Shown: positions 1 to 60,775 of the stretch, one piece after another | Layout of the letters: the number at the start of each line of letters is the position of its first letter | How positions within the stretch are numbered: position 1 is the stretch's first letter | Source of the DNA: Vicugna vicugna | Lineage: Eukaryota | Length of the DNA: 64,000 bases | Assembly (NCBI GenBank): GCA_013265495.1 | Contig: MU057403.1 | Coordinates: forward strand, 287,965 to 351,964 | Direction: 5' to 3' | Notes under the pieces: generated by a model | The model's input: only the letters and a program-made list of their open reading frames with translations | Told to the model about the DNA's origin: nothing | The model's database searches: none | Program-made: the position numbers and the translations under genes

Positions 1-690
1 CGCGCTCGGCCGGGCCCCCTCCCGCTCCCCTGCCCCTCACTTTCACCTCGCCCGGCTGCGCGGCCACCATGGCGTCCAGCGAGGAGGACGGTACCAACGG
101 CGGCGCCTCGGAGGCCGGCGAGGAGAGGGAGGCCACGGGCAAGAGGAGGCGCCTGGGCTTGTTGGCCACCACCTGGCTCATCCTCTACAACATCGCCATG
201 ACCGCGGGGTACGTCCGCCCCGAAAGACCCTCCCCGCGCCCCTGCCCGCCGCACATTCCGTCCTCGGGGCGCCGGCTGGGCGGCTGAGCGCGCGGGGCTC
301 AGGAGCGGGGGGCGGCGAGCGGGCCGGGCGGCTGGGGGGTCGCGGGGAGGGTCGCTGGCGGCCGCCGTGGGGGGAGGGGTGCGGCCGCCGCCGCCGCCGG
401 GCTTGAATGGAGTGGGGCGGGGGAAGGGGGGCCGGGGCCCGGCGAGCCGGGCATTGCCTAATACGGTGCACGGCGTGGCGCGGCGGCCGCGGGGCGCGGG
501 CCGGAGGTTAAGTATAGACCCGGGCAGGAATGCGGGGCCGACCCGCGGGGGAGGCGGCTCCGGCCCGGCCGCCCCGGACGCCGCTGCCCGCTGCTTCTGC
601 TGCTGCTAAAGAAACGCGACGATCTCGCCACCCCGGAGCCCCTGTCCGGCCGTTGACCCAAACCCGCTTCTTCGGCCGCCCACCCTGGAG
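1..690. promoter_or_regulatory. CpG island over HACD1 5' end, exon 1 and start of intron 1
   Basis: Very GC- and CpG-rich sequence, GC boxes and G-runs; composition drops to AT-rich after about 700. Confidence 0.9.
69..208 (+). CDS. HACD1: HACD1 (PTPLA) coding exon 1
   Basis: Perfect Kozak [29 protein letters not shown]...[12 protein letters not shown]; donor GG|GTACGT at 209. Confidence 0.95.
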
Positions 691-1184
691 TGCATTTGCT
701 TGTTAGTATCACCAAGTTGCTTTTTCTTTTTTCTTTCTTTAAGTAATGGTGCGCCCGAGAGCTTCTCACTTGGGACGATTTTCAAAACACCCTGCCATAT
801 CAGAGCAAGGCACGGGTGTCCAGCATCTTGACGGCTCCATACTGATACCCTGTACTTTTGTTTCTGGCATTGGGTATGACTTCCAAGTTAAGGTTACATG
901 ATGACTGTCGCTCTTTAAAGAGCTGTCGGAGTGACTTGTGTCAACCGCTTTCAGAACCTGCTGGGAAAATGCTCTATCGTTTCTAAATGGCATTGCCATT
1001 TAAAAAAAGTGATTTTCCCATTATTACATGAAGTGTTATTAACCTATACACGTGGGGAAAAGTTTAGTAGCTTATATTTTCCTATAAGGCCTCAAAGTTT
1101 AATTGACAAAGATTTAATAAATGATTTGACGCAGTACTGAATACCTACTATGTGCTTTGCCAAATACAGTTGATAAAATCAGTA

Positions 1185-5780: not shown

Positions 5781-7689
5781 AAAAGCAGTGTTAAAGGAAA
5801 AAATGAGATAGATTCGTGTGTAGAAAACCAAGTTCTTCAAAAGGCAGGTGGTCTGCAAGAAATCTCAGGATTAAAAGAAGCACCAGAAGATAGAAGAAAG
5901 AGCTCCACCTTCAGTAATATTTTTCAGGATTATTGTAGCCATAGTAGCATGAGAAGAAGGCGTTTAGTAAGTGTTAGACAGTGTTTAGTAAGTTATGCCA
6001 CGTATATCTCATTACAGCACTGTCCCGTTGTCTCCTCTTACTAATTTTAAGATATCCTTGAGCCCAGAATGCCCTGTTTATCTCTAATTCCCCAGTGTCT
6101 AGCACAGTACCTGGCTTAACAATAAATGTTGATCCTTGAGACGACTGAATAAATAGAGGAATAAAGCAAGCAAGCAAACAAGAAACCTTCTGCATGTAGA
6201 ACACGTTTATAGTCTTCAGAGTGTTTTATCCTGGACTCAAAGTGTCTATTTGGGTTCATATTTGGGTAATCAGTAGCTCTGGCATGTTAAAGAAAAAAAA
6301 CAACAACAAACTTTCCAGAAAAGAGTCCTCATTGTAGAAGCTCCAGTTGCTTTTGGAAGTATTTAAAATTATAGTAAATAAACTGATAGATGTAGGAAGT
6401 CCAGTTAGCCAAATGTAGGGCCCTTAAGAGAGACTTTAATTTTCACCCTTTGTGATGGAGGGCTTAGGAAGTGAGCACTGATTAGATCAGATTAGCCCCT
6501 GGCTGTATGTACTGAAAAGCAGATGACAGGTTAACATAGATGGTGCCATGGTCCTTTCTAACCGGGTGTTAATTTCTTTTAGTTTCAACAGGTTAGTAAT
6601 TCGCATTATCATGATGCTATACCAGTTGGTACAGTGCTGCCACCTATGGGACAACAGTAGAATTTGTTCTAGTGTTGTAATGCATGGATTTTTACATCAT
6701 GCTTTAAAAAATGTAGAAAACTTGCCATCTAAATGAATTTTTCGATGAATTCTTTGGTAGGTTACTGATGACCTCTCAAATTGCTCTTTTGTAAAGATCT
6801 GATTTGGATTTGCCTTAACGAAAAGACAGGTGTATGGGAAAATGTGAATTAAAACATCTTACTATGCTTTTTGTTTTCTTATTAGAAGTTGTACAGGGAC
6901 TTGGAATTGAGAATAATGAAACCATAATGTTTTAAATCTGGAAGGTGCCCAAAGCGTTGTCCAGATTAGTACACTCAGATTAGCCCAGCATAAGGTTATT
7001 GTGAGGATGAAATATTAATGTGTTAAATATGCAAAAAGAACATGAAAGCTCTCTGAAAGTATACTGATTATTATCATTGTCATTATCATTAATTCTTCTA
7101 CATTTCAAAGGGCTTTATGATAGTTTCAGACATTTCCCTGATTGCTTGTCACAGCTCACTAGAAGGTCATTATTTTTACCTCCTTATGTGCTGAGGAGGA
7201 GACGTTCTCAGGGTCAAAGTGCTGTTCCGCCGTTTTCATTGAGCTGGCATTTTCATAATATTCAATCAGTCATTTCTTTGCAGGAATCTTTAAGCCATTT
7301 ATGTATCTTATGAGTGTTCTTTAAAAGTTAAAAAACTGTATAATGATTTTATAATTCATAAATCCATTTCACTGGACACTTTGGAGACCACTGGTTCTGA
7401 AAGCCTGGGGTAGCAGTTGGTTTCCATGGGGGTATCATTAGGGATTTTGAAAAGTTACAGGTGACGCAACTTTTTAAAACTTCAAAGTACATTTGTAATG
7501 GCAATGGAAACTAGAAAAAAAATTCTCTAATCAGTGATTTTTGGAGATTGAGTACTAGGGTGAGAAGGCTGGTCTCCACAGGGGTAACCTGTATTTTAAG
7601 TATCTCTAATTCCCAGTTGTTCTGTGAATTAAGTGTAAGTTGAAAAGCGAGGGCATATGCAGTTTTTCTTTTTTTTAAAAAAACCTGTT

Positions 7690-23611: not shown

Positions 23612-26340
23612 TTTTTTTTTCATTTGGCAAAGTGTTTTATTCAAAAGCTTCTCAACACCATCTAGTTGTCAGAAAGAACAGATATCCCCTTTTCATGCCC
23701 ACCCAACTCCCAATTCCAGAGGCAGAAGTTAAACCATTTGGCGAGAGTTCCCCCTAATGATTATAATTCAGATCATGATAAGGTTTGGGCTGCTCTCTCA
23801 CCCACTTCCTCTAAGCCTCTGCCTAACTCTGACTCAGGTAGAGCTGTGTTCCCCCGCAGTTCAGAACAACAGGAAGGAATCGTGTCAGTGTTGATCAACC
23901 TCCCATTCCTGGGCTATTAGAGGCACATAAAATTACCTTGAAAAAACTGAATTCAGTGACTGCCATCTAGGCAGGACAGTGACACTGTCAAGCAGCATGC
24001 AGTTCTGAGAGCTTGAATATTAGGGCACCCTCCCCCCACTCTACTCTAGGACCAAGGAGCACTAGGGCATTTTCTCTCCACACACCTCTATTGCTCATCC
24101 TCTCCTGCCACATAAAAACAGACATGGAACCAAAGTTAAACCATTTGGCGAGAGTTCCCCCTAATGATTATAATTCAGATCATGATAAGGTTTGGGCTGC
24201 TCTCTCACCCACTTCCTCTAAGCCTCTGCCTAACTCTGACTCAGGTAGAGCTGTGTTCCCCCGCAGTTCAGAACAACAGGAAGGAATCGTGTCAGTGTTG
24301 ATCAACCTCCCATTCCTGGGCTATTAGAGGCACATAAAATTACCTTGAAAAAACTGAATTCAGTGACTGCCATCTAGGCAGGACAGTGACACTGTCAAGC
24401 AGCATGCAGTTCTGAGAGCTTGAATATTAGGGCACCCTCCCCCCACTCTACTCTAGGACCAAGGAGCACTAGGGCATTTTCTCTCCACACACCTCTATTG
24501 CTCATCCTCTCCTGCCACATAAAAACAGACATGGAACCAAACCTGTTGACAGAATTAAGACAGTTACATCTGATTAAAATGGTAAGAGATCCTGAGCTGC
24601 TGGAGATGAGGAGAATAGATAGTATGACCTGATCTTTCCCTTTTTTCTTTAAGAACATTTTGTTTCAGCATAAAGCACACTTCCCCAAAGGGGTTCCTGG
24701 AAGAGAAATTCAGGGGTCTGACTGTGTCCTGTGGGAACACACAGTCACCTGGGTAACTTTGGTTTCAGGTCTGGATCTGTCCTTTGTAGCTACTTCAGGT
24801 CCCACGGGAGGAGGAAAGGCTGGGGGGCAGAGTCACTCGGCCAAAGTGGGGTCCCAGGCTGGCAGGATGATGGGCTCCTGCTCTAGCATGGCCAGCACCT
24901 CTCCAGGGACATGCTTCTTGTCCACCACCACCTCGTAAACATATTCACAGAACCACTCCTCTGTCATGCACAGGTAACCTTTATGGCCATGGTCTTCACC
25001 CCATGAATTTTCTACTCTCCATTTCAGGAAACTACCAGCCTGATCATCCTTCTCTGAGACAGCAGTGAAGGTCATGGCGTGGGTCATGAGTGACTCACCA
25101 AAAGTCAACCTCTCAGCTTTATTCATGTTCTTCATGGAGACACCAAACACTAACTCATGGTCATAGGCATTCATGTCACTGAGGCCCAGCTTGCTATTGA
25201 AGTGTTTTCCAACATCACAGCCAAACCACACAGCCTCTCCATCTTTGATGGAGGCAGCAACCATCTTTTTCAAGAAGTCAGTGGGTTGGTTGTTATATAG
25301 AGTTTTTCTCCTTCCAACCATATTGCTTAAGTAGTCCACCGTGTAAAGTTTGTTGTACTTGTGCTGGGCTGAGGGTCATTCACTAAACAAATTTTATCTT
25401 CCATGTTGAAGAGTGGCTTGACATGTTCCCTGTAAAACTGCAAGGGTGTTAGGGGGCCCATCTTCTGATAGTTTTTATCCTTGTCTCAATACTGCCAGGT
25501 GAACGTCTCTGGTGGACTACGCAAACAGATGCACACCACTCTGAGTATCTCCTCCACCATGACGTCCTGTGTGGCTGAGATCTCTCCTTTGGTTGCTCCA
25601 CTGTGTACCAGGTTCCGTAGTCATATACAGAATTCTCTCATCTTGTGATTCGGAATATCATTCATCCTTCTGGTTGCCTCTGTTGTGTAAGAGTCAGGGA
25701 AGCATTTCTTAGGGACAACACCATATTTTTCAACAATATTGACAAGCATATCCCATTGGCCACCATCATTTGCAGGATTTGTAAGCAAATACTGCACCTG
25801 CCTACCATCCTCAGGCTCCTTGTTCTGGGCTGTGTCCACAAAGGCGTTTAAGAAGAAGTAACAGTGTTCAACCTTGCCCCAGAAAAAGAGGTAAGACTGA
25901 ATAAACTCAAATTCCTCAATATTTAATTTTCTCATGAATGGACGTCTCATAACATTCCGACAAGAAAAGACCCAGCATCTCCCTGAGCTCTTCTGGTTGG
26001 TGGCTGGCTTGCCTTCCTGATGCACATTGGGCTGGAACACATGCTGCGCACCCTGGGCCGTGGCCCTCTTCAGGCAGATGCCCAGCAGGGCGTGGGTGGT
26101 GCCGACATTCTGAGCCAGGACGAACTGAGGGTCAGAATTCAGTTTCTGAAGCAGAGCAGCTACCTTCTCCGTATTCAGCCCCGCGTTGTTCACGGTGCCC
26201 ACGCTGCCCGGGTTGGAGGACGGTAGTTTTCGGGGTCCTCAGACCCGACCTGCCTCTCGCACCCCGAGCGCCGGAAAGAGGAAACCGGCTCGGTGGCGGC
26301 GGAGGGATGAGGCCGAGAGAAACGGCGTCCGCGGAGGAAC
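23612..26340 (-). pseudogene. BLMH: Full-length processed pseudogene of bleomycin hydrolase
   Basis: Intronless CDS 26193-24833 (NQKSSGRCW...THAM...ENSWG...WDPTLAE); ATG->GTG, CGA->TGA stops (25621, about 25486), 1-nt frameshift near 25365, 6-nt deletion at C-terminus; AATAAA (23636-41), poly(A) (23612-20), TSD taaaatta at 23603 and 26342. Confidence 0.95.
23726..24541. repeat. Tandem duplication, 2 x 407 bp, in BLMH retrocopy 3' UTR
   Basis: Units start at 23726 and 24133; identical by eye and give identical ORF-track peptides. Confidence 0.95.
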
Positions 26341-29300
26341 CTAAAATTATTCTTAAATCTACTTAACACTTTGTGGGGTTTTTTTGGTTTGTTTGTTTTT
26401 TGCTTTTAAGATAAGGACTGTACCAAATGGGTTTCAGACCACAGCTTTCAGAAGAGTGATCGGAGACCCCAGACTCCTTACCTTAGAGATTTTGCATCAG
26501 TGGTTGTGGGGTTAAGAAATCTGCATTTTTAGCAAGATGCTGGGCAGTTTGAAGCAGTTTAGTCCGCCTCCCTTTTGAGAAAAACCGCAATAGAGAAATC
26601 CCAGGGGGTGGATGGAGATGATGTATAAATGCCGTATCCCATTTACTTAATATAACTGAAAAAATCAGCATTACTGTGTTATTCTATTGTTTCTAGCCAA
26701 AGTGAATACCATAGTTTTAAGTTTATGCAAACAAAAAACTTGATATTTGCATAGTGTGAAGTAGGAAGACATTTTGTATGTTTTTTTAAAGCATATTTTA
26801 TAGCCATGCAGTTATCTGTCTGTTCCCTTAAGTAGTACAGAGTGTAAGACAGAGAACAGAGGTAAAATCCAGAGTAATAGTTTTTCTGGTTGTACTGAAT
26901 TTAATGATATGAAATAAATGGACATCACTGCAGTTAGAAACCATGGTAAAAGTTTAGTAGCGTTGTTAATTGAACAGAGCTAGTCTTTTCTTTTTTTGTA
27001 AATAAGCCAGACACACACATGCGCACGTTTCTTGGAAAGGACTATATTAAAGATGGTGAAAAATATGTGTGCTCCTGTTTTTGAGAAATACACACAACAG
27101 AAAATAATTATAATTTGCCCGAGTGATTTATAATTTAATCATCAGTTGGCTAAAATAGGTTTGTGGCTAAATTAATATGTCCAGAAGCTAGTTTTATTGG
27201 GTATACTTTGAACTTTATTAAAACCTTGATGACAGAAACTAATCTTAAGAACTGAGGAAATTGAAAGATTAATTTACATTAAATGTACTCAAGAAGAAAA
27301 AATGACTCAACCAGTTTTCAGCTGGAAGAATGTTGATTTTTGAGCATCAAATAATTTTTTTCAAAGCTACTGCTTTATTTGTGTCTTGTATGCATAAGCA
27401 TTTGCTCTAAAATCTGGTTCTGCTTTTTTGTTTCAGCTCCAAAAGCAACATATATGAGATAATTTATAGACACTGATTTTGTAGCATTAAAAAGGTACTA
27501 CTGTTTTAAGGAAAAGTAAAATTCTAGAAAGTTCATAACTTCAGGATAATTTCTTTTTGCAAAGAAATGCTTCTGCAAATACTGTATGTGGTAGATGGTA
27601 TGATCAACTATGTGCTAGGTAGCAAAGTCAGATATGAGCAGAGCTAGCAAAAAAAAAAACAGGCCTTTAAAAACAGTTTTGCGAAAATGCTGGTTATTTT
27701 ACAGGTGATACATATTCATAGTTATGAAGTTTTTGGCCCCGAAAAATTCCTAATGATGTGCTTATGGAATTACCTGCTTTCTGTAAATGCATTCAGCCAG
27801 TTTTGGAAAAAAATATTCTAAAATATTCCCTGTGAATTAACTTTAGTTGTATAGATACTTTGGAAACACTCACTTGGTGTGCTCATTTTTAAATGTGTTT
27901 TGTTGAGTAAGCATTAGAAAGGAGAAAAGAAGTCGTTACGACATTTATTTTAAGCTTTGGTGGAATTAAGGCTGAGTTGTTTTAGTACTAATTTTAGTCT
28001 TCTAGTGAATGAAATGGATTAAAGCTATAAATGTTTCTTTAGGAGGAAAGTGTACATAGATTTATTTCTCGATAAATACTAACAAAATTATAAACAGTGC
28101 CTTTGAGTATTACTATCAGATTCTGATGACAGGTATTTTTAAATTCTCTCATCAGTCACATTCAGTGGTGGAATGATGACACGTGTAATGGTTAAGAACT
28201 GGAGCCTGGGAAGGAAACCAGTCTAGGTTTAGGGAAAACTACTTAATTTTCTTAAGCTTCTGAGTCCTCATCCGTAAACTGGGGTAGGAAGTTGTCTGAA
28301 TTGCAAATGAGATAACATCTATAACTATTTAGCACAGAGCTTGGCAAATATAAACGCTCAATGAATGTTAGTTGGTATTGCTGACAGTTTGCTCTCAATG
28401 GTTTTATAATAACTATGTTGTGCTGGGTGAAATTTCTGAAGTCGTACCAAACCCACTTATGTCTGGGATAGAGTTTAATGTCACTGTCACATAATTGTCT
28501 TGGGTAAAATTTTCTTTTCCTATATTTTTTCCATTTTTTTCTGATTTGGAAGATTGCGTATATGTAGTTATTTTTCTTATCTTGAATTAGAAGTAGGGGG
28601 CTGTCATTTCATTTAATAGTAGGACAGTAGGAAGAAGCTACCTAGACACTGGTCTCTTTCAGAGTGTGTGTGGTATCTTGATGGCTGGGTCTTTTGAACG
28701 TGAATATTTCAGATAAAGCAGAAGCTGTAATGATTTATTTTCCAGCCTGGCCACCTGGCAGGGAAGGAGGGTGGGGCTCTGAGTCACTGAGGGGATGTGA
28801 CCACTGTCTTCACAACAGAAGATATTTTTAGAGAATTCTCCTGCATTAGGATGATATTAATAATTTGTATGTACAGTGTTAATGGAAGAATATGAAAGTT
28901 TTCTAGGTTCCTCAAATGAAGAGTTCCTTAATCAGAATATGATGAAATAATTTTGTTCAGAAATGCCTCATCAGTCAGCCATTATTCGCAATAAGAGGAT
29001 TGACCAAAAACCTTAAGCTCATCTTAAGTCCCCATTTTAAAAAATTAGATATAAATCTCTGACTTCCTAAATGGTGTGCAAAATCTAGATTATAAATTAT
29101 CTTCTCTCATTTCTAATCTGAAAAGCCTAGATGACCTAATTGGTTAGAGTTGACTGAAGTCATATGGCCCAGCTGTTCTGGTTTCAGATGAGTCAAGTTT
29201 ACTGGTTTTAGAGAGAACATGGCAGCTTCCGTTGGCTGTTTCAGAAAGGTCAAAATTCAAACCACACAGAATGACCTAAGATAAAAAAGTCTTAGCTTTC

Positions 29301-55216: not shown

Positions 55217-57194
<1,978 letters not shown>

Positions 57195-57807
57195 AATATT
57201 TCACTTCTAATACATGCATTTAAAGTTATATAATTTTTCCTCCAAGCACTGCTTTAGTTGCATCCTAGGGATTTCAATGTATCATATTTTTATTGTCATC
57301 TGAACCAAAACATTTTCTAATCTCCACTGTGATTTCTTCTTTGATCCATGGCTTATTAAAAAGTGTGCTGCATCATTTTAAAACATTTGGGGGATTTTCT
57401 AGATATTATTATTATTATTGTTAGTTCTGGTTACATTTCTTGGAATCAGACAGCATAGTCTTATGATTTCTGTCTTTTGAAACTCATCGAGAAATTCATT
57501 TATGAGAAACCATCTGATCTACTTTGTTAACTGTTCCTCATGCCTTTGCAAATAATGCATATTCTCCAGTTGTTGGATGTAGTGTTCCTTAACCATTGAC
57601 TAGGCTGAATCAGTGAATAGTGATGTTCAAACCTGTATATCCTTGCTTGTTGTTCATCTGTTTGTTCTATCAATTACTAGGACAAGTGTGTTAAGATACC
57701 CAACTATGTTTATAAATGTTAAAATTTCTTTTTTAACTTCTGTCATTTTTTACCACATTATTATGTACATATTAACTTAGAATTGTCTTGACTTTTTTAT
57801 ATTATAA

Positions 57808-58146
57808 TGTGTATCTAAAAAATGATACAAATGAACTTATTTACAAAACAGAAACAGACTCACAGACACAGAAAACAAACCTACGGTTACTAAAGGGGAC
57901 AGAGTAGGGAGGGAGGGGTAAATTAGAAGTTTGGGATTAACAGATACACACTGTCATATATAAAATAAACAAGGACCTACTATATAACACAGACTACTAC
58001 ATTCAATGTCTTGTAATAATTTATAATGGAAAAGAATCTGAAAAAGAATATATATATGTATATACATAACTGAATCACTTTGCTATTCACCAGAATCTAA
58101 CATATTGTCAACTATGTCAACATAAACAAATAAACAACAAAAAAAG
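57808..58146 (+). mobile_element. Cetartiodactyl-type L1 3' end inside MOAP1 retrocopy 3' UTR
   Basis: aaaaaatgatacaaatgaacttatttacaaaacagaaacagactcacagac...gaatcactttgct, A-tail. Confidence 0.85.
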
Positions 58147-59419
58147 AGAACCTATGATACATTATCACATCTGACAGCTACACTTGCGCCTATTATCACA
58201 CAAGCTGACAGCTCAAGCAGATCTGGCCAGCATGTGTACCTGACCTTGCCTGTTCGCTCAAAGTACTACACACATGTAGTGCTTAGACTTTCTGTACAGC
58301 TGTGTGTGATAAAAAAAAATCACAGGGTGAATTTAAATATATAAACACCAGTGCAGAACTGCATCCTCCTAGTCAATGACACATATAGGAGACATTAAAT
58401 AGGCACAGAAATGACAAAGGAATATACTGAGAACTGCACAAAAATGAGTTACTTGGCAGCACAAGGCAGGGATTGGTTAATGTCTATCACTGGGTATATG
58501 GACTGTTCTACCTTCATGCTCTGCTCATTGCCAGGGAGCCCTTCCTGATTCCAAGATTCAGGTGAAAAGGCCCTCTAATCCTGCCTGGAGAAGGTCCTAC
58601 TCCTCCTCACTCTTCATCCTTTATCAGTGTCAGTAACTGCAATAAGCCAGGGGCTGAGCCATCCTCTGACAGAGCAAACTTCCCACGCGGGGTTCTGGGG
58701 ACTGCTCCAGCAATGATTTGGTCTAGGCGGGCCTGATTCACAACTTCTCGCTCAATTACATCTCTCTCTACCAGTTTCTGTAATAAAGGCTCCAGCCTTA
58801 GCACATAAGCAGACAATTTTTCTTCATCCTTTTGGTAAGTAGTCAGATATTTGACTTGCAACTAGGGTTACTGATAACCCCAAACACCTGTTCAAGAGCC
58901 TGCACGCATTCAGGAACTGTAATTAATGGACTGTTTATCTTGAGGACACGAATAATATCAGATGCTGAGCCTCTAAGGCTCTCTAGCAGTCTCCTTCTCT
59001 TCTCGGTATCTAATACCTGCCATGTCTTCATCATTTGAGTGGTATGAAACAGCTAGGATTCAAATTCTTCTTCCTCTGGTTCCAGAGGATCACTGCCTGA
59101 GAATACTGTCAGCTTTCTGTATTTCAGGTATTGCAGAGCAGGCTGAAGGGCCTCACCTAAGGCCTGTGTCAACATAGGGGCCCGCATTTCTGGGATCATG
59201 TCCTGGTCTAGGCCAAAAGGGTCGTTTCCATATCCCAGAGCTCTGGTAAACTCACCCAGTGTCATGCCCTCTCCCTCTGAGAATTCATTTAATCTGCTTA
59301 AAAATTCATTATCTGGGTCAGGGGGCTTAAAGATCGCTCTCCAGGCACCCCCTTTTCCGGGTATCTCCTTGGGGACCAGAGCATGACTAGTCTCCTCAGT
59401 AAGCCCTATTAAGGCTACC

Positions 59420-60105
59420 TTCCTGTCCTCGTCCCCCCGGAACATCCTCCTGAGCAGTCGGTACACGCCCGAGGGAGCTAAAGCAGCTCGCAGGGCCTCC
59501 TCGATTGCCGCCACGTTACAGGTCTGGGGGATGCCGGCAATCGACAGCGCTTTCCGAGGGTTCACATCCACCCCTTCACACCAGTCTTCCAAGAGCCTCA
59601 GCATCACGTCCCGAAACAACAGATTTAAATGCTGATTTCTCCGGGCCACTGACGCCACCGCAGTTCACAGTTCTCCGTGGTACCCTAGTCAAGTGTCGTC
59701 AACATCCGGGGTTCAGAAGGGCCTCTCTCCGCCTCGGGCGCCCCGCAGCGGGGTCCCGCCCGCTGTCATCTAATTGTCCGCGTCTGCGTGCATCGCCGGC
59801 GGCCGAGGCGCCAGGGTCCGCTCCCGATTCTTCCCGGAGGCCAGGCCGAGGAGCGAGAAGGTGGCCTCTCCGCTCGGAAGGGGACGCTCGCGAGGGATAC
59901 CGGGGCTGCGCAGGAGGCGCGCGGGGGGTGGCGGTCGGCCGATCGCTGCGGCGCTGAGGCGCGACTGCGCGTTCCGAGCGGCGGGCGGAGCACCGGGGGC
60001 GAGGCTTCGCGGCCAGGCCCGCACGCCGGCCCACCTGAAGCGTGGCGTCCGCGCCGGTGCCTCCGCAGCCTGCAGCCGCGTCCTAGCTAGAGATGTTCCG
60101 GGCGC
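59420..60105. promoter_or_regulatory. CpG island carried by the MOAP1 retrocopy 5' end
   Basis: Dense undecayed CpGs inside AT-rich L1 surroundings. Confidence 0.75.
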
Positions 60106-60775
60106 ACTGGTCAAAGTGTTGTCTTGTCTTCTTGATGAATCAACCCATTTATCATCATCAAATAGTCTCCTCATCTCTGTCTTGAAGTCTACTTTATCTG
60201 ATATTAAAATAAGCACCGGATCTTTTTTTATGACTTGTGTATGCAAGGCATTTTTCTATCCTTCTGCTATGAACCTATCTTATGTGTAAATTGTGTCTTG
60301 TCAGTCACAAAGGCTGAACCTTGTTCTTTTGTCTAGTTTGACTGTTTCTTACTTTAACTGGAACATTTAGTCGATTGGCATTTAACTTCTGATGCAGTTA
60401 CGCCATCTTCTTGTATTCTATTTGTTCCTTTTGCCCTTTGTTCCTTTGTTCCTTGTCTTCTTTTAGATTAATCAAGTAGTTTCTAGTATTACATTTTATC
60501 TTCTTGACTGGCTTTTAGTTACACCTCTTTGAATTATTTTTAGTAGATACACAGGGGTTATAAAATGCAAACTTTGCAAACCAAACATATCAAAATCCAT
60601 CTGCAATGCCACTTACTAGACAATGTAAAACACTTTTGAGAACTGTGTCACTTCCCTTTTTGACTCTTATGGAATTATTTTCATATATTTAATTTTTCCA
60701 CATGTTAAAAATCCTATAATGCCGTATAGTTATGGTTGCTTTAAAAGGACTTCAAAGAAAAGTTGAAAACATTAA

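What the first reader, a model, noticed from the sequence alone, without database searches (positions are those of the whole stretch)
59270..60105. MOAP1 retrocopy created an orphan CpG island that appears to be gaining GC
Seen: a dead pseudogene keeps a dense CpG island (59690-60105) that extends into the CDS. Against recalled MOAP1, N-terminal changes are mostly weak-to-strong: three M->V (codons 1, 13, 15), three L->S, E->A, R->G, N->D and V->A, several creating CpGs, with only about two strong-to-weak changes. Both A->G and T->C occur, so ADAR editing of the template cannot explain it alone. Known: pseudogenes normally lose CpG and GC, and GC-biased gene conversion acts at recombination hotspots, including PRDM9-independent ones at unmethylated CpG islands. 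Inference: the imported island seeded a self-reinforcing hotspot, and possibly a new promoter.
Basis: partly seen in the sequence, partly recalled or inferred. Interest (0 to 1): 0.72.

Follow-up and report, generated by a model that had tools for sequence, protein, structure and literature searches.

The report
Retrocopy-borne CpG island gaining GC
A dead, reverse-transcribed copy of the MOAP1 gene in a camelid genome brought a CpG-rich first exon with it, and that imported island has kept its CpGs and pushed the neighbouring dead coding sequence towards G and C, a natural example of how a new CpG island can be founded and maintained.

Summary
Window 57791-60118 (minus strand) is a processed MOAP1 retrocopy. 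It lacks the parent's intron, has a poly(A) remnant and has an exact 8-nt target-site duplication. The parent gene is on another contig of the same genome.

- **The island:** the imported exon 1 is still a dense CpG island (59690-60105: GC 74.5%, 63 CpG, o/e 1.09). The rest of the window has o/e 0.28.
- **Raw asymmetry against the true parent:** in the 5' 820 nt the copy has G/C where the parent has A/T at 48 sites, and the reverse at 11. In the 3' 1460 nt the counts are 27 and 31 (p=1e-4).
- **Polarised changes:** with 38 non-camelid MOAP1 proteins as outgroups, copy-lineage non-synonymous changes are W->S 11 : S->W 2 in codons 1-110, against 3:10 downstream.
- **CpG decay:** the copy's island lost at most 3 of 42 parental CpGs, while its 3' body lost 10 of 16. 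This points to long-term germline hypomethylation.
- **Parent-side share:** part of the exon-1 asymmetry is probably CpG decay in the parent, which is itself a pseudogene here.
- **Replicate:** a BLMH retrocopy 34 kb away, also with an imported island, shows the same pattern. A KPNA2 retrocopy without an island does not.

GC-biased gene conversion is the best mechanism but is not shown. Promoter activity could not be tested.

The parts
57783..57790 (.). Target-site duplication, 3' copy (TTGTCTTG on the + strand)
   Evidence: Exact 8-nt repeat of 60119-60126. It lies directly outside the poly(A) remnant.
57791..57800 (-). Degraded poly(A) tail of the retrocopy
   Evidence: The gene-sense sequence reads ATAAAAAAG where homology to the parent ends.
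57801..58557 (-). 3' UTR of the retrocopy, including an antisense L1 3'-end fragment (about 57800-58145) that the parent also carries
   Evidence: It aligns continuously with the parent, L006 5841-7744, at 92.3% identity. W/S differences are balanced at 16:12.
58558..59607 (-). Disabled MOAP1 coding sequence (PNMA family)
   Evidence: Translation. The best protein hits are MOAP1 of Camelus and 38 other mammals, carrying Pfam PF20846 and PF14893. Lesions: GTG start, TAG at 59053-59055, 4-nt deletion near 58863.
58423..58685 (-). Stretch almost identical between copy and parent (runs of 176 and 76 nt with no difference)
   Evidence: The expected number of runs of 176 nt or more at the local difference rate is 0.0004. 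A likely trace of recent ectopic gene conversion between copy and parent (inference).
59279..60118 (-). Zone of W->S-biased change on the copy lineage
   Evidence: Unpolarised 48:11 over 59300-60118. Polarised 11:2 in codons 1-110, plus 3 W->S in the exon-2 UTR. The last polarised W->S of the cluster is at 59279.
59608..59722 (-). 5' UTR part derived from parental exon 2
   Evidence: Alignment. Polarised through N-terminally extended outgroup gene models.
59723..60118 (-). Imported parental exon 1, the core of the CpG island. The exon 1/exon 2 junction is at 59722/59723
   Evidence: The copy lacks 117-120 nt of the parent (L006 7745-7861). That segment starts GTAAGA and ends in a pyrimidine tract followed by CACAG. 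The region has GC 0.75, 61 CpG and o/e 1.10. Homology to the parent stops at 60118, and the parent's upstream promoter is not in the copy.
60119..60126 (.). Target-site duplication, 5' copy
   Evidence: Exact repeat of 57783-57790. Old L1 sequence lies beyond it.

Best explanation
An L1-mediated retrocopy of a spliced MOAP1 mRNA inserted into an old L1 in an AT-rich region. This happened in the camelid stem lineage, before Camelus and this genome's lineage split.

The mRNA's 396-nt first exon was part of the parent's promoter CpG island, so the insert brought about 60 CpGs in 400 bp without the parent's upstream promoter. That CpG-dense DNA has stayed unmethylated in the germline, so its CpGs did not decay, while the 3' body of the same insert lost most of its CpGs.

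Around the island, and about 420 bp into the dead coding sequence, the copy lineage has fixed A/T->G/C changes several times more often than the reverse, and faster than further downstream. As a result the island is maintained and is spreading into the pseudogene.

The most likely driver is GC-biased gene conversion at PRDM9-independent recombination initiation in the unmethylated island. A CpG-creating repair bias (TpG/CpA->CpG) in unmethylated DNA is a probable contributor.

- **Shown:** retrocopy anatomy, CpG retention, and the polarised W->S excess with its gradient.
- **Inferred:** hypomethylation, from the CpG-decay contrast.
- **Not shown:** recombination, conversion and any promoter activity.
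For: **Retrocopy**
- The parent is at G000:C11764 and has an intron that the copy lacks.
- There is an exact 8-nt target-site duplication and a poly(A) remnant.

**Age**
- At parent codons 127, 204 and 292 (and 142) the copy keeps the outgroup residue, while this genome's parent and Camelus share a derived one.
- So the copy predates that split.
- Copy and parent differ at 5.0% of sites in the 3' UTR and 5.3% in the CDS.

**Hypo-deamination** (CpG positions shared / copy-only / parent-only)
- Exon 1: 39/20/3.
- Exon-2 UTR plus 5' CDS: 12/10/4.
- 3' body: 6/6/10.
- The copy therefore lacks 3 of 42 parental CpGs in the island, against 10 of 16 in its body.

**W->S bias**
- Unpolarised 48:11 (5') against 27:31 (3').
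- Of the 54 differing coding nucleotides, I classed 30 as copy-derived, 14 as parent-derived, 1 as ambiguous and 9 as synonymous (unpolarised). I did this by hand from that table.
- Copy lineage W->S:S->W is 11:2 in codons 1-110 and 3:10 in codons 111-351.
- The parent lineage is balanced at 6:7.
- 15 of the 30 copy-lineage changes fall in the first 110 of 351 codons (p=0.025).
- Rough equilibrium GC from these counts, worked out by hand: about 0.88 for the 5' part and about 0.21 for the 3' part.
- Of 9 polarisable copy-only CpGs, 6 are gains in the copy.

**Replicate and control in the same window**
- The BLMH retrocopy (24133-26340) has an imported island with CpG 20/6/0.
- Its copy-lineage non-synonymous changes are W->S 20: S->W 10, with the W->S changes nearer the 5' end (p=0.037).
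- The KPNA2 retrocopy 600 bp away has no island, shows 42:34 with no gradient, and lost 4 of its 13 5' CpGs.

**Literature**
- The same triad of suppressed CpG loss, raised W->S and raised rate is described for dog CpG islands (passages of PMC4350167).
Against: - No direct evidence of recombination, conversion tracts, methylation state or allele-frequency skew.
- The genome has a PRDM9-like locus with open SSXRD, PR/SET and zinc-finger exons. In the PRDM9-bearing panda, CpG islands are not strongly GC-biased (passages of PMC4350167). Island-centred gBGC is therefore less expected here than in dogs.
- The L1 flank directly 5' of the island shows no visible enrichment (GC 0.34, o/e 0.27). A symmetric effect could not be tested because the L1 is too old to polarise.
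- The exon-1 asymmetry is unpolarised and enriched in CpG contexts: 14 of 21 transitions, p=0.005. This fits CpG decay in the parent or a TDG-type mutational bias as well as it fits gBGC.
- At one exon-1 site (59787) the Camelus parent model keeps Arg, which shows a loss in the parent.
- Polarisation rests on 25 non-synonymous sites at a locus chosen because it looked biased.
- Retrocopies of KPNA2 elsewhere in the genome range from 52:107 to 146:81, so regional context alone moves the ratio about four-fold.
Confidence: 0.5

Rival explanations
1. Repair-driven mutational bias without recombination. The unmethylated island recruits TDG/MBD4-type base-excision repair, which converts TpG/CpA to CpG. 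Together with the absence of CpG deamination this raises CpG and GC. No conversion or hotspot is involved.
For: - 14 of 21 exon-1 W->S transitions and 5 of 6 W->S transversions lie at copy CpGs.
- 6 of the 14 polarised copy-lineage W->S changes in the exon-2 UTR plus 5' CDS are TpG or CpA -> CpG.
- This mechanism, and a CpG-island bias for TpG/CpA->CpG, are described in PMC4041421 (abstract and passages).
Against: - 8 of the 14 polarised W->S changes create no CpG (for example TAA->TGA, GAT->GGT, GAA->GCA). TDG as described acts only in the TpG context.
- The bias reaches about 420 bp beyond the dense island.
- The BLMH copy shows W->S changes over about 260 codons.
Confidence: 0.2
2. The asymmetry is mainly decay of the parent. 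MOAP1 is a pseudogene in camelids, its exon 1 became methylated and lost CpG and GC, and the copy merely preserves the older state.
For: - The parent has a TGA at an invariant Trp, a 9-nt deletion, and at least 10 changes at conserved residues.
- The Camelus parent is also broken.
- Exon-1 differences are enriched at CpG contexts.
- 3 of 9 polarisable copy-only CpGs are parent losses, and site 59787 is a parent loss.
Against: - In the region that can be polarised, the copy lineage carries 11-14 W->S changes. The parent lineage carries only 4 S->W and 2 W->S in codons 1-110.
- The parent's exon 1 still has o/e 0.95.
- The BLMH parent is an intact, conserved gene, yet its retrocopy island has 6 extra CpGs and has lost none.
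Confidence: 0.1
3. Selection. The island was co-opted as a promoter or other regulatory element, and G/C or CpG gains were favoured for function.
For: - Retrocopy promoters often lie in CpG islands, and about 3% of expressed retrocopies inherited a parental promoter (passages of PMC4772013).
- A retrocopy-borne island acts as a promoter in human RB1 (abstract of PMC4537222 as shown in the listing).
Against: - The changes are spread over UTR and dead coding sequence with no motif.
- A second unrelated retrocopy shows the same pattern.
- The RNA runs found hold only 10-12% of the stretch's words, about the size of the part identical to the parent.
Confidence: 0.07
4. Changes were made at the moment of copying, by ADAR editing of the template mRNA or by reverse-transcriptase errors.
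For: 6 of the 11 polarised W->S changes in the 5' CDS are A->G on the sense strand.
Against: - 4 of the 11 are T->C and 1 is A->C.
- In exon 1, T->C (16) outnumbers A->G (5).
- An event at copying would not spare the 3' half.
- It would not explain the retention of CpGs.
Confidence: 0.03

Closest known systems
GC-biased, stably unmethylated CpG-island hotspots of the dog genome (Berglund et al. 2014, PMC4350167; passages read)
   Same: It shows suppressed CpG loss, raised W->S substitution, high equilibrium GC and a raised local rate, leading to new or growing CpG islands.
   Different: Dogs lack PRDM9, whereas this genome has a PRDM9-like locus with open exons. Recombination is measured in the dog work and not here. 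Here the island's origin is known: it is an imported exon.
Retrocopy-borne CpG islands acting as promoters: PPP1R26P1/CpG85 in human RB1 (PMC4537222, abstract start only), and the 'inherited parental promoter' class of Carelli et al. 2016 (PMC4772013, passages)
   Same: A processed copy carries CpG-rich 5' sequence of its parent to a new place, where it persists as an island.
   Different: Those cases are defined by transcription or imprinting, which could not be tested here. They do not report a W->S substitution gradient.
Evolutionary regimes of primate CpG islands, hypo-deamination versus biased gene conversion (Cohen, Kenigsberg and Tanay 2011; recalled, not read; the title phrase occurs in 23 papers)
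   Same: The two regimes named there are the two processes inferred here.
   Different: This is a single locus of known birth, not a genome-wide class. Both regimes seem to act together here.
TDG-initiated aberrant repair giving TpG/CpA->CpG in CpG islands (Talhaoui et al. 2014, PMC4041421; abstract and passages)
   Same: CpG-creating transitions are enriched in and next to the island.
   Different: More than half of the polarised W->S changes here are not in a TpG/CpA context.

Membership tests
L1-mediated processed pseudogene (retrocopy) | Lacks the parent's intron(s) | tested here: met
   A 117-120 nt GT...AG segment of the parent (L006 7745-7861) is absent from the copy, precise to within 3 nt.
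L1-mediated processed pseudogene (retrocopy) | Poly(A) tail and flanking target-site duplication | tested here: met
   There is an A-rich remnant at 57791-57800. An exact 8-nt repeat lies at 57783-57790 and 60119-60126.
L1-mediated processed pseudogene (retrocopy) | Homology limited to the transcript, at a locus different from the parent's | tested here: met
   Homology runs from 57798 to 60118 only. The parent is on contig C11764 and the copy is on C84.
MOAP1 (PNMA4) gene family | Sequence and domain match to MOAP1 orthologues | tested here: met
   40 of the 40 listed hits carry PF20846 and PF14893. 22 of them are source-named modulator of apoptosis 1 or MOAP1, and most of the rest are unnamed. 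The best hit is Camelus bactrianus at 87% identity.
CpG island (Gardiner-Garden and Frommer thresholds, recalled: at least 200 bp, GC at least 50%, o/e at least 0.6) | Length, GC and CpG o/e | tested here: met
   416 bp, GC 0.745, o/e 1.09.
Unmethylated (orphan) CpG island | Lack of germline methylation | not testable with these tools
   Only a proxy is available. The copy lacks 3 of 42 parental CpGs in the island, against 10 of 16 in its 3' body.
Unmethylated (orphan) CpG island | Not at the promoter of an annotated gene | tested here: inconclusive
   The flanks are L1, and the parent's upstream promoter is not in the copy. No annotation or expression data were available.
gBGC substitution hotspot | Polarised W->S excess on the lineage concerned, local and graded | tested here: met
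   11:2 against 3:10, p=0.0048. Position test p=0.009.
gBGC substitution hotspot | Raised substitution rate in the same stretch | tested here: met
   15 of 30 copy-lineage coding changes fall in the first 110 of 351 codons (p=0.025). Exon 1 differs from the parent at 10.7% of sites, against 5.0% in the 3' UTR (unpolarised).
gBGC substitution hotspot | Bias independent of sequence context and of strand | tested here: inconclusive
   Both A->G and T->C occur, and 8 of 14 polarised changes are outside CpG contexts. CpG contexts are nevertheless over-represented in exon 1.
gBGC substitution hotspot | Coincides with measured recombination or DSB activity, and W->S alleles are skewed to high frequency | not testable with these tools
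   No map or ChIP data were available.
gBGC substitution hotspot | Effect on both sides of the initiation site | tested here: inconclusive
   The right flank is an old L1 with relatives of only 70-87% identity and none for the first 290 nt. Its GC is 0.34.
Retrocopy with an inherited parental promoter | Transcription start inside the parent-derived sequence | not testable with these tools

The most novel reading that the evidence does not exclude
CpG-dense first exons carried by retrocopies are enough, on their own and without the parental promoter, to found new germline-unmethylated islands. These islands then attract PRDM9-independent recombination and grow by GC-biased fixation, even in a mammal that keeps PRDM9. 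Two independent cases, from MOAP1 and BLMH, lie 34 kb apart in one AT-rich window. This suggests a regular route by which retroposition seeds new CpG islands, and perhaps stable recombination sites, in camelid genomes.
Probability: 0.3. Interest if true: 0.6.

Novelty: new member of a known kind. Interest (0 to 1): 0.42.

Why it matters
Where new CpG islands come from, and whether CpG-rich DNA alone sets its own unmethylated state over evolutionary time, is usually studied with transgenes or genome-wide statistics. A dated retrocopy is a natural insertion experiment. The starting sequence can be estimated from the parent. The insert has no function to preserve. The 3' half of the same insert is an internal control.

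Here the imported island resisted decay for longer than the split between Old and New World camelids, and the adjoining dead sequence drifted towards GC. If the cause is conversion, the locus is a clean single-site readout of PRDM9-independent recombination in a PRDM9-bearing species. It can be tested directly with sperm methylomes, DMC1 maps and population data. As a single locus with one replicate, it illustrates known processes rather than revealing a new one.

Tried and rejected
- **Read evidence:** sequencing runs were found. 14 DNA runs of six coded organisms hold 0.67-0.74 of the words, and six RNA-labelled runs (X15-X20, one only guessed to be RNA) hold 0.10-0.12. The one laying call returned nothing. 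Expression, population frequencies and other camelids' copies remain open.
- **Orthologous copy in other camelids through predicted proteins:** 0 of the 25 hits were the copy's open frame. P0055 and P0062 are parent fragments from Camelus.
- **Polarising exon 1 with N-terminally extended gene models:** the horse and otter models align at only 34-41% identity and are unusable. The Camelus model covers the parent only.
- **Flank test for a symmetric effect:** the L1 is too old, so this was dropped. No L1 consensus was built.
- **ADAR or reverse-transcriptase origin:** rejected on strand and position.
- **Earlier notes of this scan:** none.
- **Literature:**
  - 'retrocopies' + 'CpG island' + 'biased gene conversion' gave 1 paper, on tandem gene arrays.
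  - 'processed pseudogene' + 'CpG island' + 'weak-to-strong' gave 0.
  - None of the 12 papers listed for MOAP1/pseudogene/camel held MOAP1.
  - No supplements were read.
- **PRDM9 locus:** Only 10 kb downstream of the SSXRD exon was read. The KRAB exon and the full zinc-finger array are unchecked.
Full report
**What is there**

The window is contig C84:287965-351964 of a 2.03-Gb mammalian assembly.

On the minus strand, 57798-60118 aligns to a single other locus, G000:C11764 (held as L006). Identity is 92.3% over 57798-59722 and 80.5% over 59722-60118. A distant paralogue at 68-70% lies on C2514.

The global alignment shows three things:
- The copy lacks 117-120 nt of the parent. This segment begins GTAAGA and ends in a pyrimidine tract followed by CACAG, so it is an intron.
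- Homology starts abruptly at 60118 and does not include the CpG-rich promoter upstream in the parent.
- Homology ends at an A-rich remnant near 57791-57800.

An exact 8-nt direct repeat flanks the insert at 57783-57790 and 60119-60126, and both flanks are old L1. This is a textbook L1-mediated processed retrocopy.

Its reading frame is MOAP1. All 40 listed hits carry PF20846 and PF14893, and 22 of them bear a MOAP1 name. The best is Camelus bactrianus at 87% identity.

The genome's own parent differs from both Camelus models at many residues. The genome is therefore a camelid other than Camelus; this is an inference from named hits.

**The copy is dead**

- Its ATG is GTG.
- A Trp codon invariant in 38 of 38 outgroups is TAG (59053-59055).
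- A 4-nt deletion near 58863 shifts the frame.

**The island is real and imported**

| Region (window coordinates) | GC | CpG o/e |
|---|---|---|
| 59690-60105, island (63 CpG) | 0.745 | 1.09 |
| Window outside the island | 0.387 | 0.283 |
| L1 directly 5' of the island, 60119-60518 | 0.34 | 0.27 |

The island core is exon 1 of the parental mRNA (59723-60118).

**Age**

- At parent codons 127, 204 and 292 (and 142) the copy keeps the residue of most outgroups, while this genome's parent and Camelus share a derived residue. The copy is therefore older than the split between Camelus and this lineage.
- Codon 11 (Lys in the camelid parents, Arg in 36 of 36 outgroups, Glu in the copy) places the copy inside the camelid stem, by parsimony.
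[quoted passage not shown] Larger figures that I recall for this split are not from any call.

**Is the copy GC-richer than its true parent?**

Yes, and only near the island. Counts of sites where the parent has A/T and the copy G/C, against the reverse:

| Region | Parent A/T, copy G/C | Parent G/C, copy A/T |
|---|---|---|
| Exon 1 | 27 | 4 |
| Exon-2 UTR | 6 | 2 |
| First 310 nt of the CDS | 15 | 5 |
| Rest of the CDS | 11 | 19 |
| 3' UTR | 16 | 12 |

- This sums to 48:11 for the 5' 820 nt and 27:31 for the 3' 1460 nt (Fisher p=1.1e-4).
- Against pooled local controls (92:85) the 5' part gives p=5.8e-5. The controls are the KPNA2 retrocopy (42:34), the MOAP1 3' part (27:31) and the BLMH 3' UTR (23:20).

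**Which lineage changed?**

I aligned 38 non-camelid MOAP1 proteins and the two Camelus models to the parent's frame. I then read off, by hand, the 54 differing coding nucleotides listed:
- 30 are copy-derived, because the outgroup majority equals the parent's residue.
- 14 are parent-derived.
- 1 is ambiguous (codon 232).
- 9 are synonymous and were left unpolarised.

The copy lineage:
- **Codons 1-110:** W->S at 1, 11, 13, 15, 22, 34, 46, 58, 61, 88 and 107 (11 changes), and S->W at 2 and 53 (2 changes).
- **Codons 111-351:** W->S at 161, 223 and 243 (3 changes). S->W at 144, 172, 182, 196, 198, 211, 243, 281 and 336, plus 332, which lies beside an indel (10 changes).
- **Tests:** Fisher p=0.0048. 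A Mann-Whitney test on positions, which needs no chosen boundary, gives p=0.009.

Other points from the polarisation:
- The parent lineage is balanced (6 W->S, 7 S->W).
- Gene models that extend into the exon-2 UTR add three more copy-derived W->S changes and one parent-derived CpG loss.
- Half of all copy-lineage coding changes (15 of 30) lie in the first 110 of 351 codons (p=0.025), so the stretch also evolves faster.
- Dividing these counts by rough numbers of A/T and G/C sites gives an equilibrium GC of about 0.88 for the 5' CDS and 0.21 for the remainder. This is my arithmetic on non-synonymous sites only and is a coarse figure.

**CpG retention**

CpG positions shared, present in the copy only, and present in the parent only:

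| Region | Shared | Copy-only | Parent-only |
|---|---|---|---|
| Exon 1 | 39 | 20 | 3 |
| Exon-2 UTR plus 5' CDS | 12 | 10 | 4 |
| 3' body | 6 | 6 | 10 |

- The copy thus lacks 3 of 42 parental CpGs in its island but 10 of 16 in its body.
- This is the contrast expected if the island has been unmethylated in the germline and the body methylated. It is a proxy, not a measurement.
- Of the 9 copy-only CpGs that can be polarised, 6 are gains in the copy (59653, 59613, 59607, 59543, 59471, 59336) and 3 are losses in the parent (59643, 59489, 59430). The copy lost 2 (59603, 59451).

**What weakens the simple reading**

- Exon 1 cannot be polarised with the data I could reach. Horse and otter models are too diverged, and Camelus gives only the parent.
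- In exon 1, 14 of 21 W->S transitions lie at copy CpGs, against 37% expected if the gains were spread evenly over A/T sites (p=0.005).
- A simple mixture estimate, by my arithmetic, attributes about 10 of the 21 to CpG decay in the parent.
- That is plausible because the parent is itself a pseudogene:
  - It has TGA at an invariant Trp, a 9-nt deletion, and at least 10 changes at conserved residues since the split from Camelus.
  - The Camelus parent is also broken. P0062 and P0055 end in frameshifted tails, and P0001 is labelled LOW QUALITY.
- At 59787 the Camelus model keeps Arg, which shows a parent-side loss.
- The same enrichment would also be produced by a CpG-creating repair bias in the copy, as in PMC4041421 (abstract and passages).
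- The ratio also varies with region. Six KPNA2 retrocopies elsewhere range from 52:107 to 146:81.

**Replicate and negative control in the same window**

- **BLMH retrocopy (24133-26340).** Its parent has 12 exon matches on C3564. It carries its own imported island (26051-26400, GC 0.58, o/e 0.89).
  - In that island the copy shares 20 CpGs with its intact parent, has 6 more and has lost none. In its 3' UTR the counts are 4 shared, 2 copy-only and 9 parent-only.
  - With 12 mammalian BLMH outgroups, copy-derived non-synonymous changes are W->S 20 and S->W 10.
  - In that count, three adjacent changes in codon 56 are taken as one event. Synonymous rows, S<->S and W<->W rows, and the ambiguous codons 216, 245, 426 and 429 are left out.
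  - The split is 17:5 in the first 260 codons and 3:5 afterwards (Fisher p=0.078). The position test gives p=0.037.
- **KPNA2 retrocopy (55225-57193).** It lies 600 bp from the MOAP1 copy and has no island. It shows 42:34 with no gradient, and it lost 4 of the 13 parental CpGs in its first 300 nt.

**Mechanism**

The pattern is suppressed CpG loss, raised W->S fixation, a raised rate and a local gradient. Berglund et al. describe the same pattern for dog CpG islands and attribute it to recombination in stably unmethylated DNA plus gBGC (passages).

That paper also reports that panda islands, in a PRDM9-bearing genome, lack the strong GC bias. This genome has a PRDM9-like locus with open SSXRD, PR/SET and zinc-finger exons. 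The array is interrupted by 207 N and the KRAB exon was not checked. Island-centred conversion would therefore have to come from PRDM9-independent initiation.

Other relevant observations:
- A recombination-independent mutational hotspot at human transcription start sites has also been described. The same paper reports that BGC-unfavoured variants are the most depleted there among common SNPs (passages of PMC12658150).
- A 176-nt run and a 76-nt run with no difference between copy and parent (58423-58685; 0.0004 such runs expected) suggest that this locus has taken part in ectopic conversion with its parent. That event lies 1 kb from the island and says nothing about bias.

I put gBGC at about 0.5, a repair-type mutational bias at 0.2, parent decay as the main cause at 0.1, selection at 0.07, and copying-time changes at 0.03.

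**Comparison with what is known**

- Retrocopies that carry parental CpG-rich 5' sequence are known. About 3% of expressed retrocopies inherited a parental promoter, and half of the novel human retrocopy promoters lie in CpG islands (passages of PMC4772013).
- The PPP1R26P1 island in RB1 is another case (abstract start only).
- I recall the two maintenance regimes, hypo-deamination and biased conversion, from Cohen et al. 2011, which I did not read.
- I found no paper that joins the two ideas for a retrocopy, within the limits of that library.

**Verdict**

The finding is a well-controlled new example of known processes, not a new kind of system.

Noticed in passing
G000:C11764 (L006 about 6570-7624, minus strand); proteins P0001, P0040, P0055, P0062: The parental MOAP1 gene is itself disabled in this genome. 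It has TGA at a Trp invariant in 38 outgroups, a 9-nt deletion, and at least 10 changes at conserved residues. The Camelus parent shows different lesions: frameshifted ORF fragments and a 'LOW QUALITY PROTEIN' label. MOAP1 may have been lost in Camelidae. None of the 12 papers listed mentions MOAP1.
   Followed up: partly
window 24133-26400: A BLMH processed retrocopy (minus strand) carries its own imported CpG island (26051-26400). The island has gained 6 CpGs and lost none. Copy-lineage non-synonymous changes are W->S 20 : S->W 10, with the W->S changes nearer the 5' end. Its start ATG is also GTG.
   Followed up: yes
window 55225-57193: A KPNA2 processed retrocopy (minus strand) has no CpG island. 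The genome holds at least six further KPNA2 retrocopies, whose W/S ratios range from 52:107 to 146:81.
   Followed up: partly
window 58423-58685: Copy and parent are identical over runs of 176 nt and 76 nt, although they differ at about 7% of alignment columns (indels included) elsewhere. This is probably recent ectopic gene conversion between loci on different contigs.
   Followed up: partly
window 60044-60056: Five copy/parent differences lie exactly 3 nt apart in exon 1 (parent CTG GTG TTG ATG CGA, copy CCG GCG CGG ACG CCA). Four are T/C at TpG/CpG. The Camelus parent model shares the parent's state. The direction of change is unresolved.
   Followed up: partly
G000:C4951 about 30.9-36.4 kb (L080, L082): A PRDM9-like locus has open SSXRD, PR/SET and C2H2 zinc-finger exons. 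The zinc-finger array is interrupted by an assembly gap of 207 N, and the KRAB exon was not examined. A second SSXRD match lies on C9436.
   Followed up: partly
window 57800-58145 and L006 about 5841-6190: The MOAP1 3' UTR of both parent and copy contains an antisense L1 3'-end fragment. That L1 insertion therefore predates the retroposition, and the mRNA was polyadenylated inside it.
   Followed up: no
window 1-750: A third CpG island (GC 0.73, 95 CpG, o/e 0.95) runs off the window's left edge. It was not examined.
   Followed up: no
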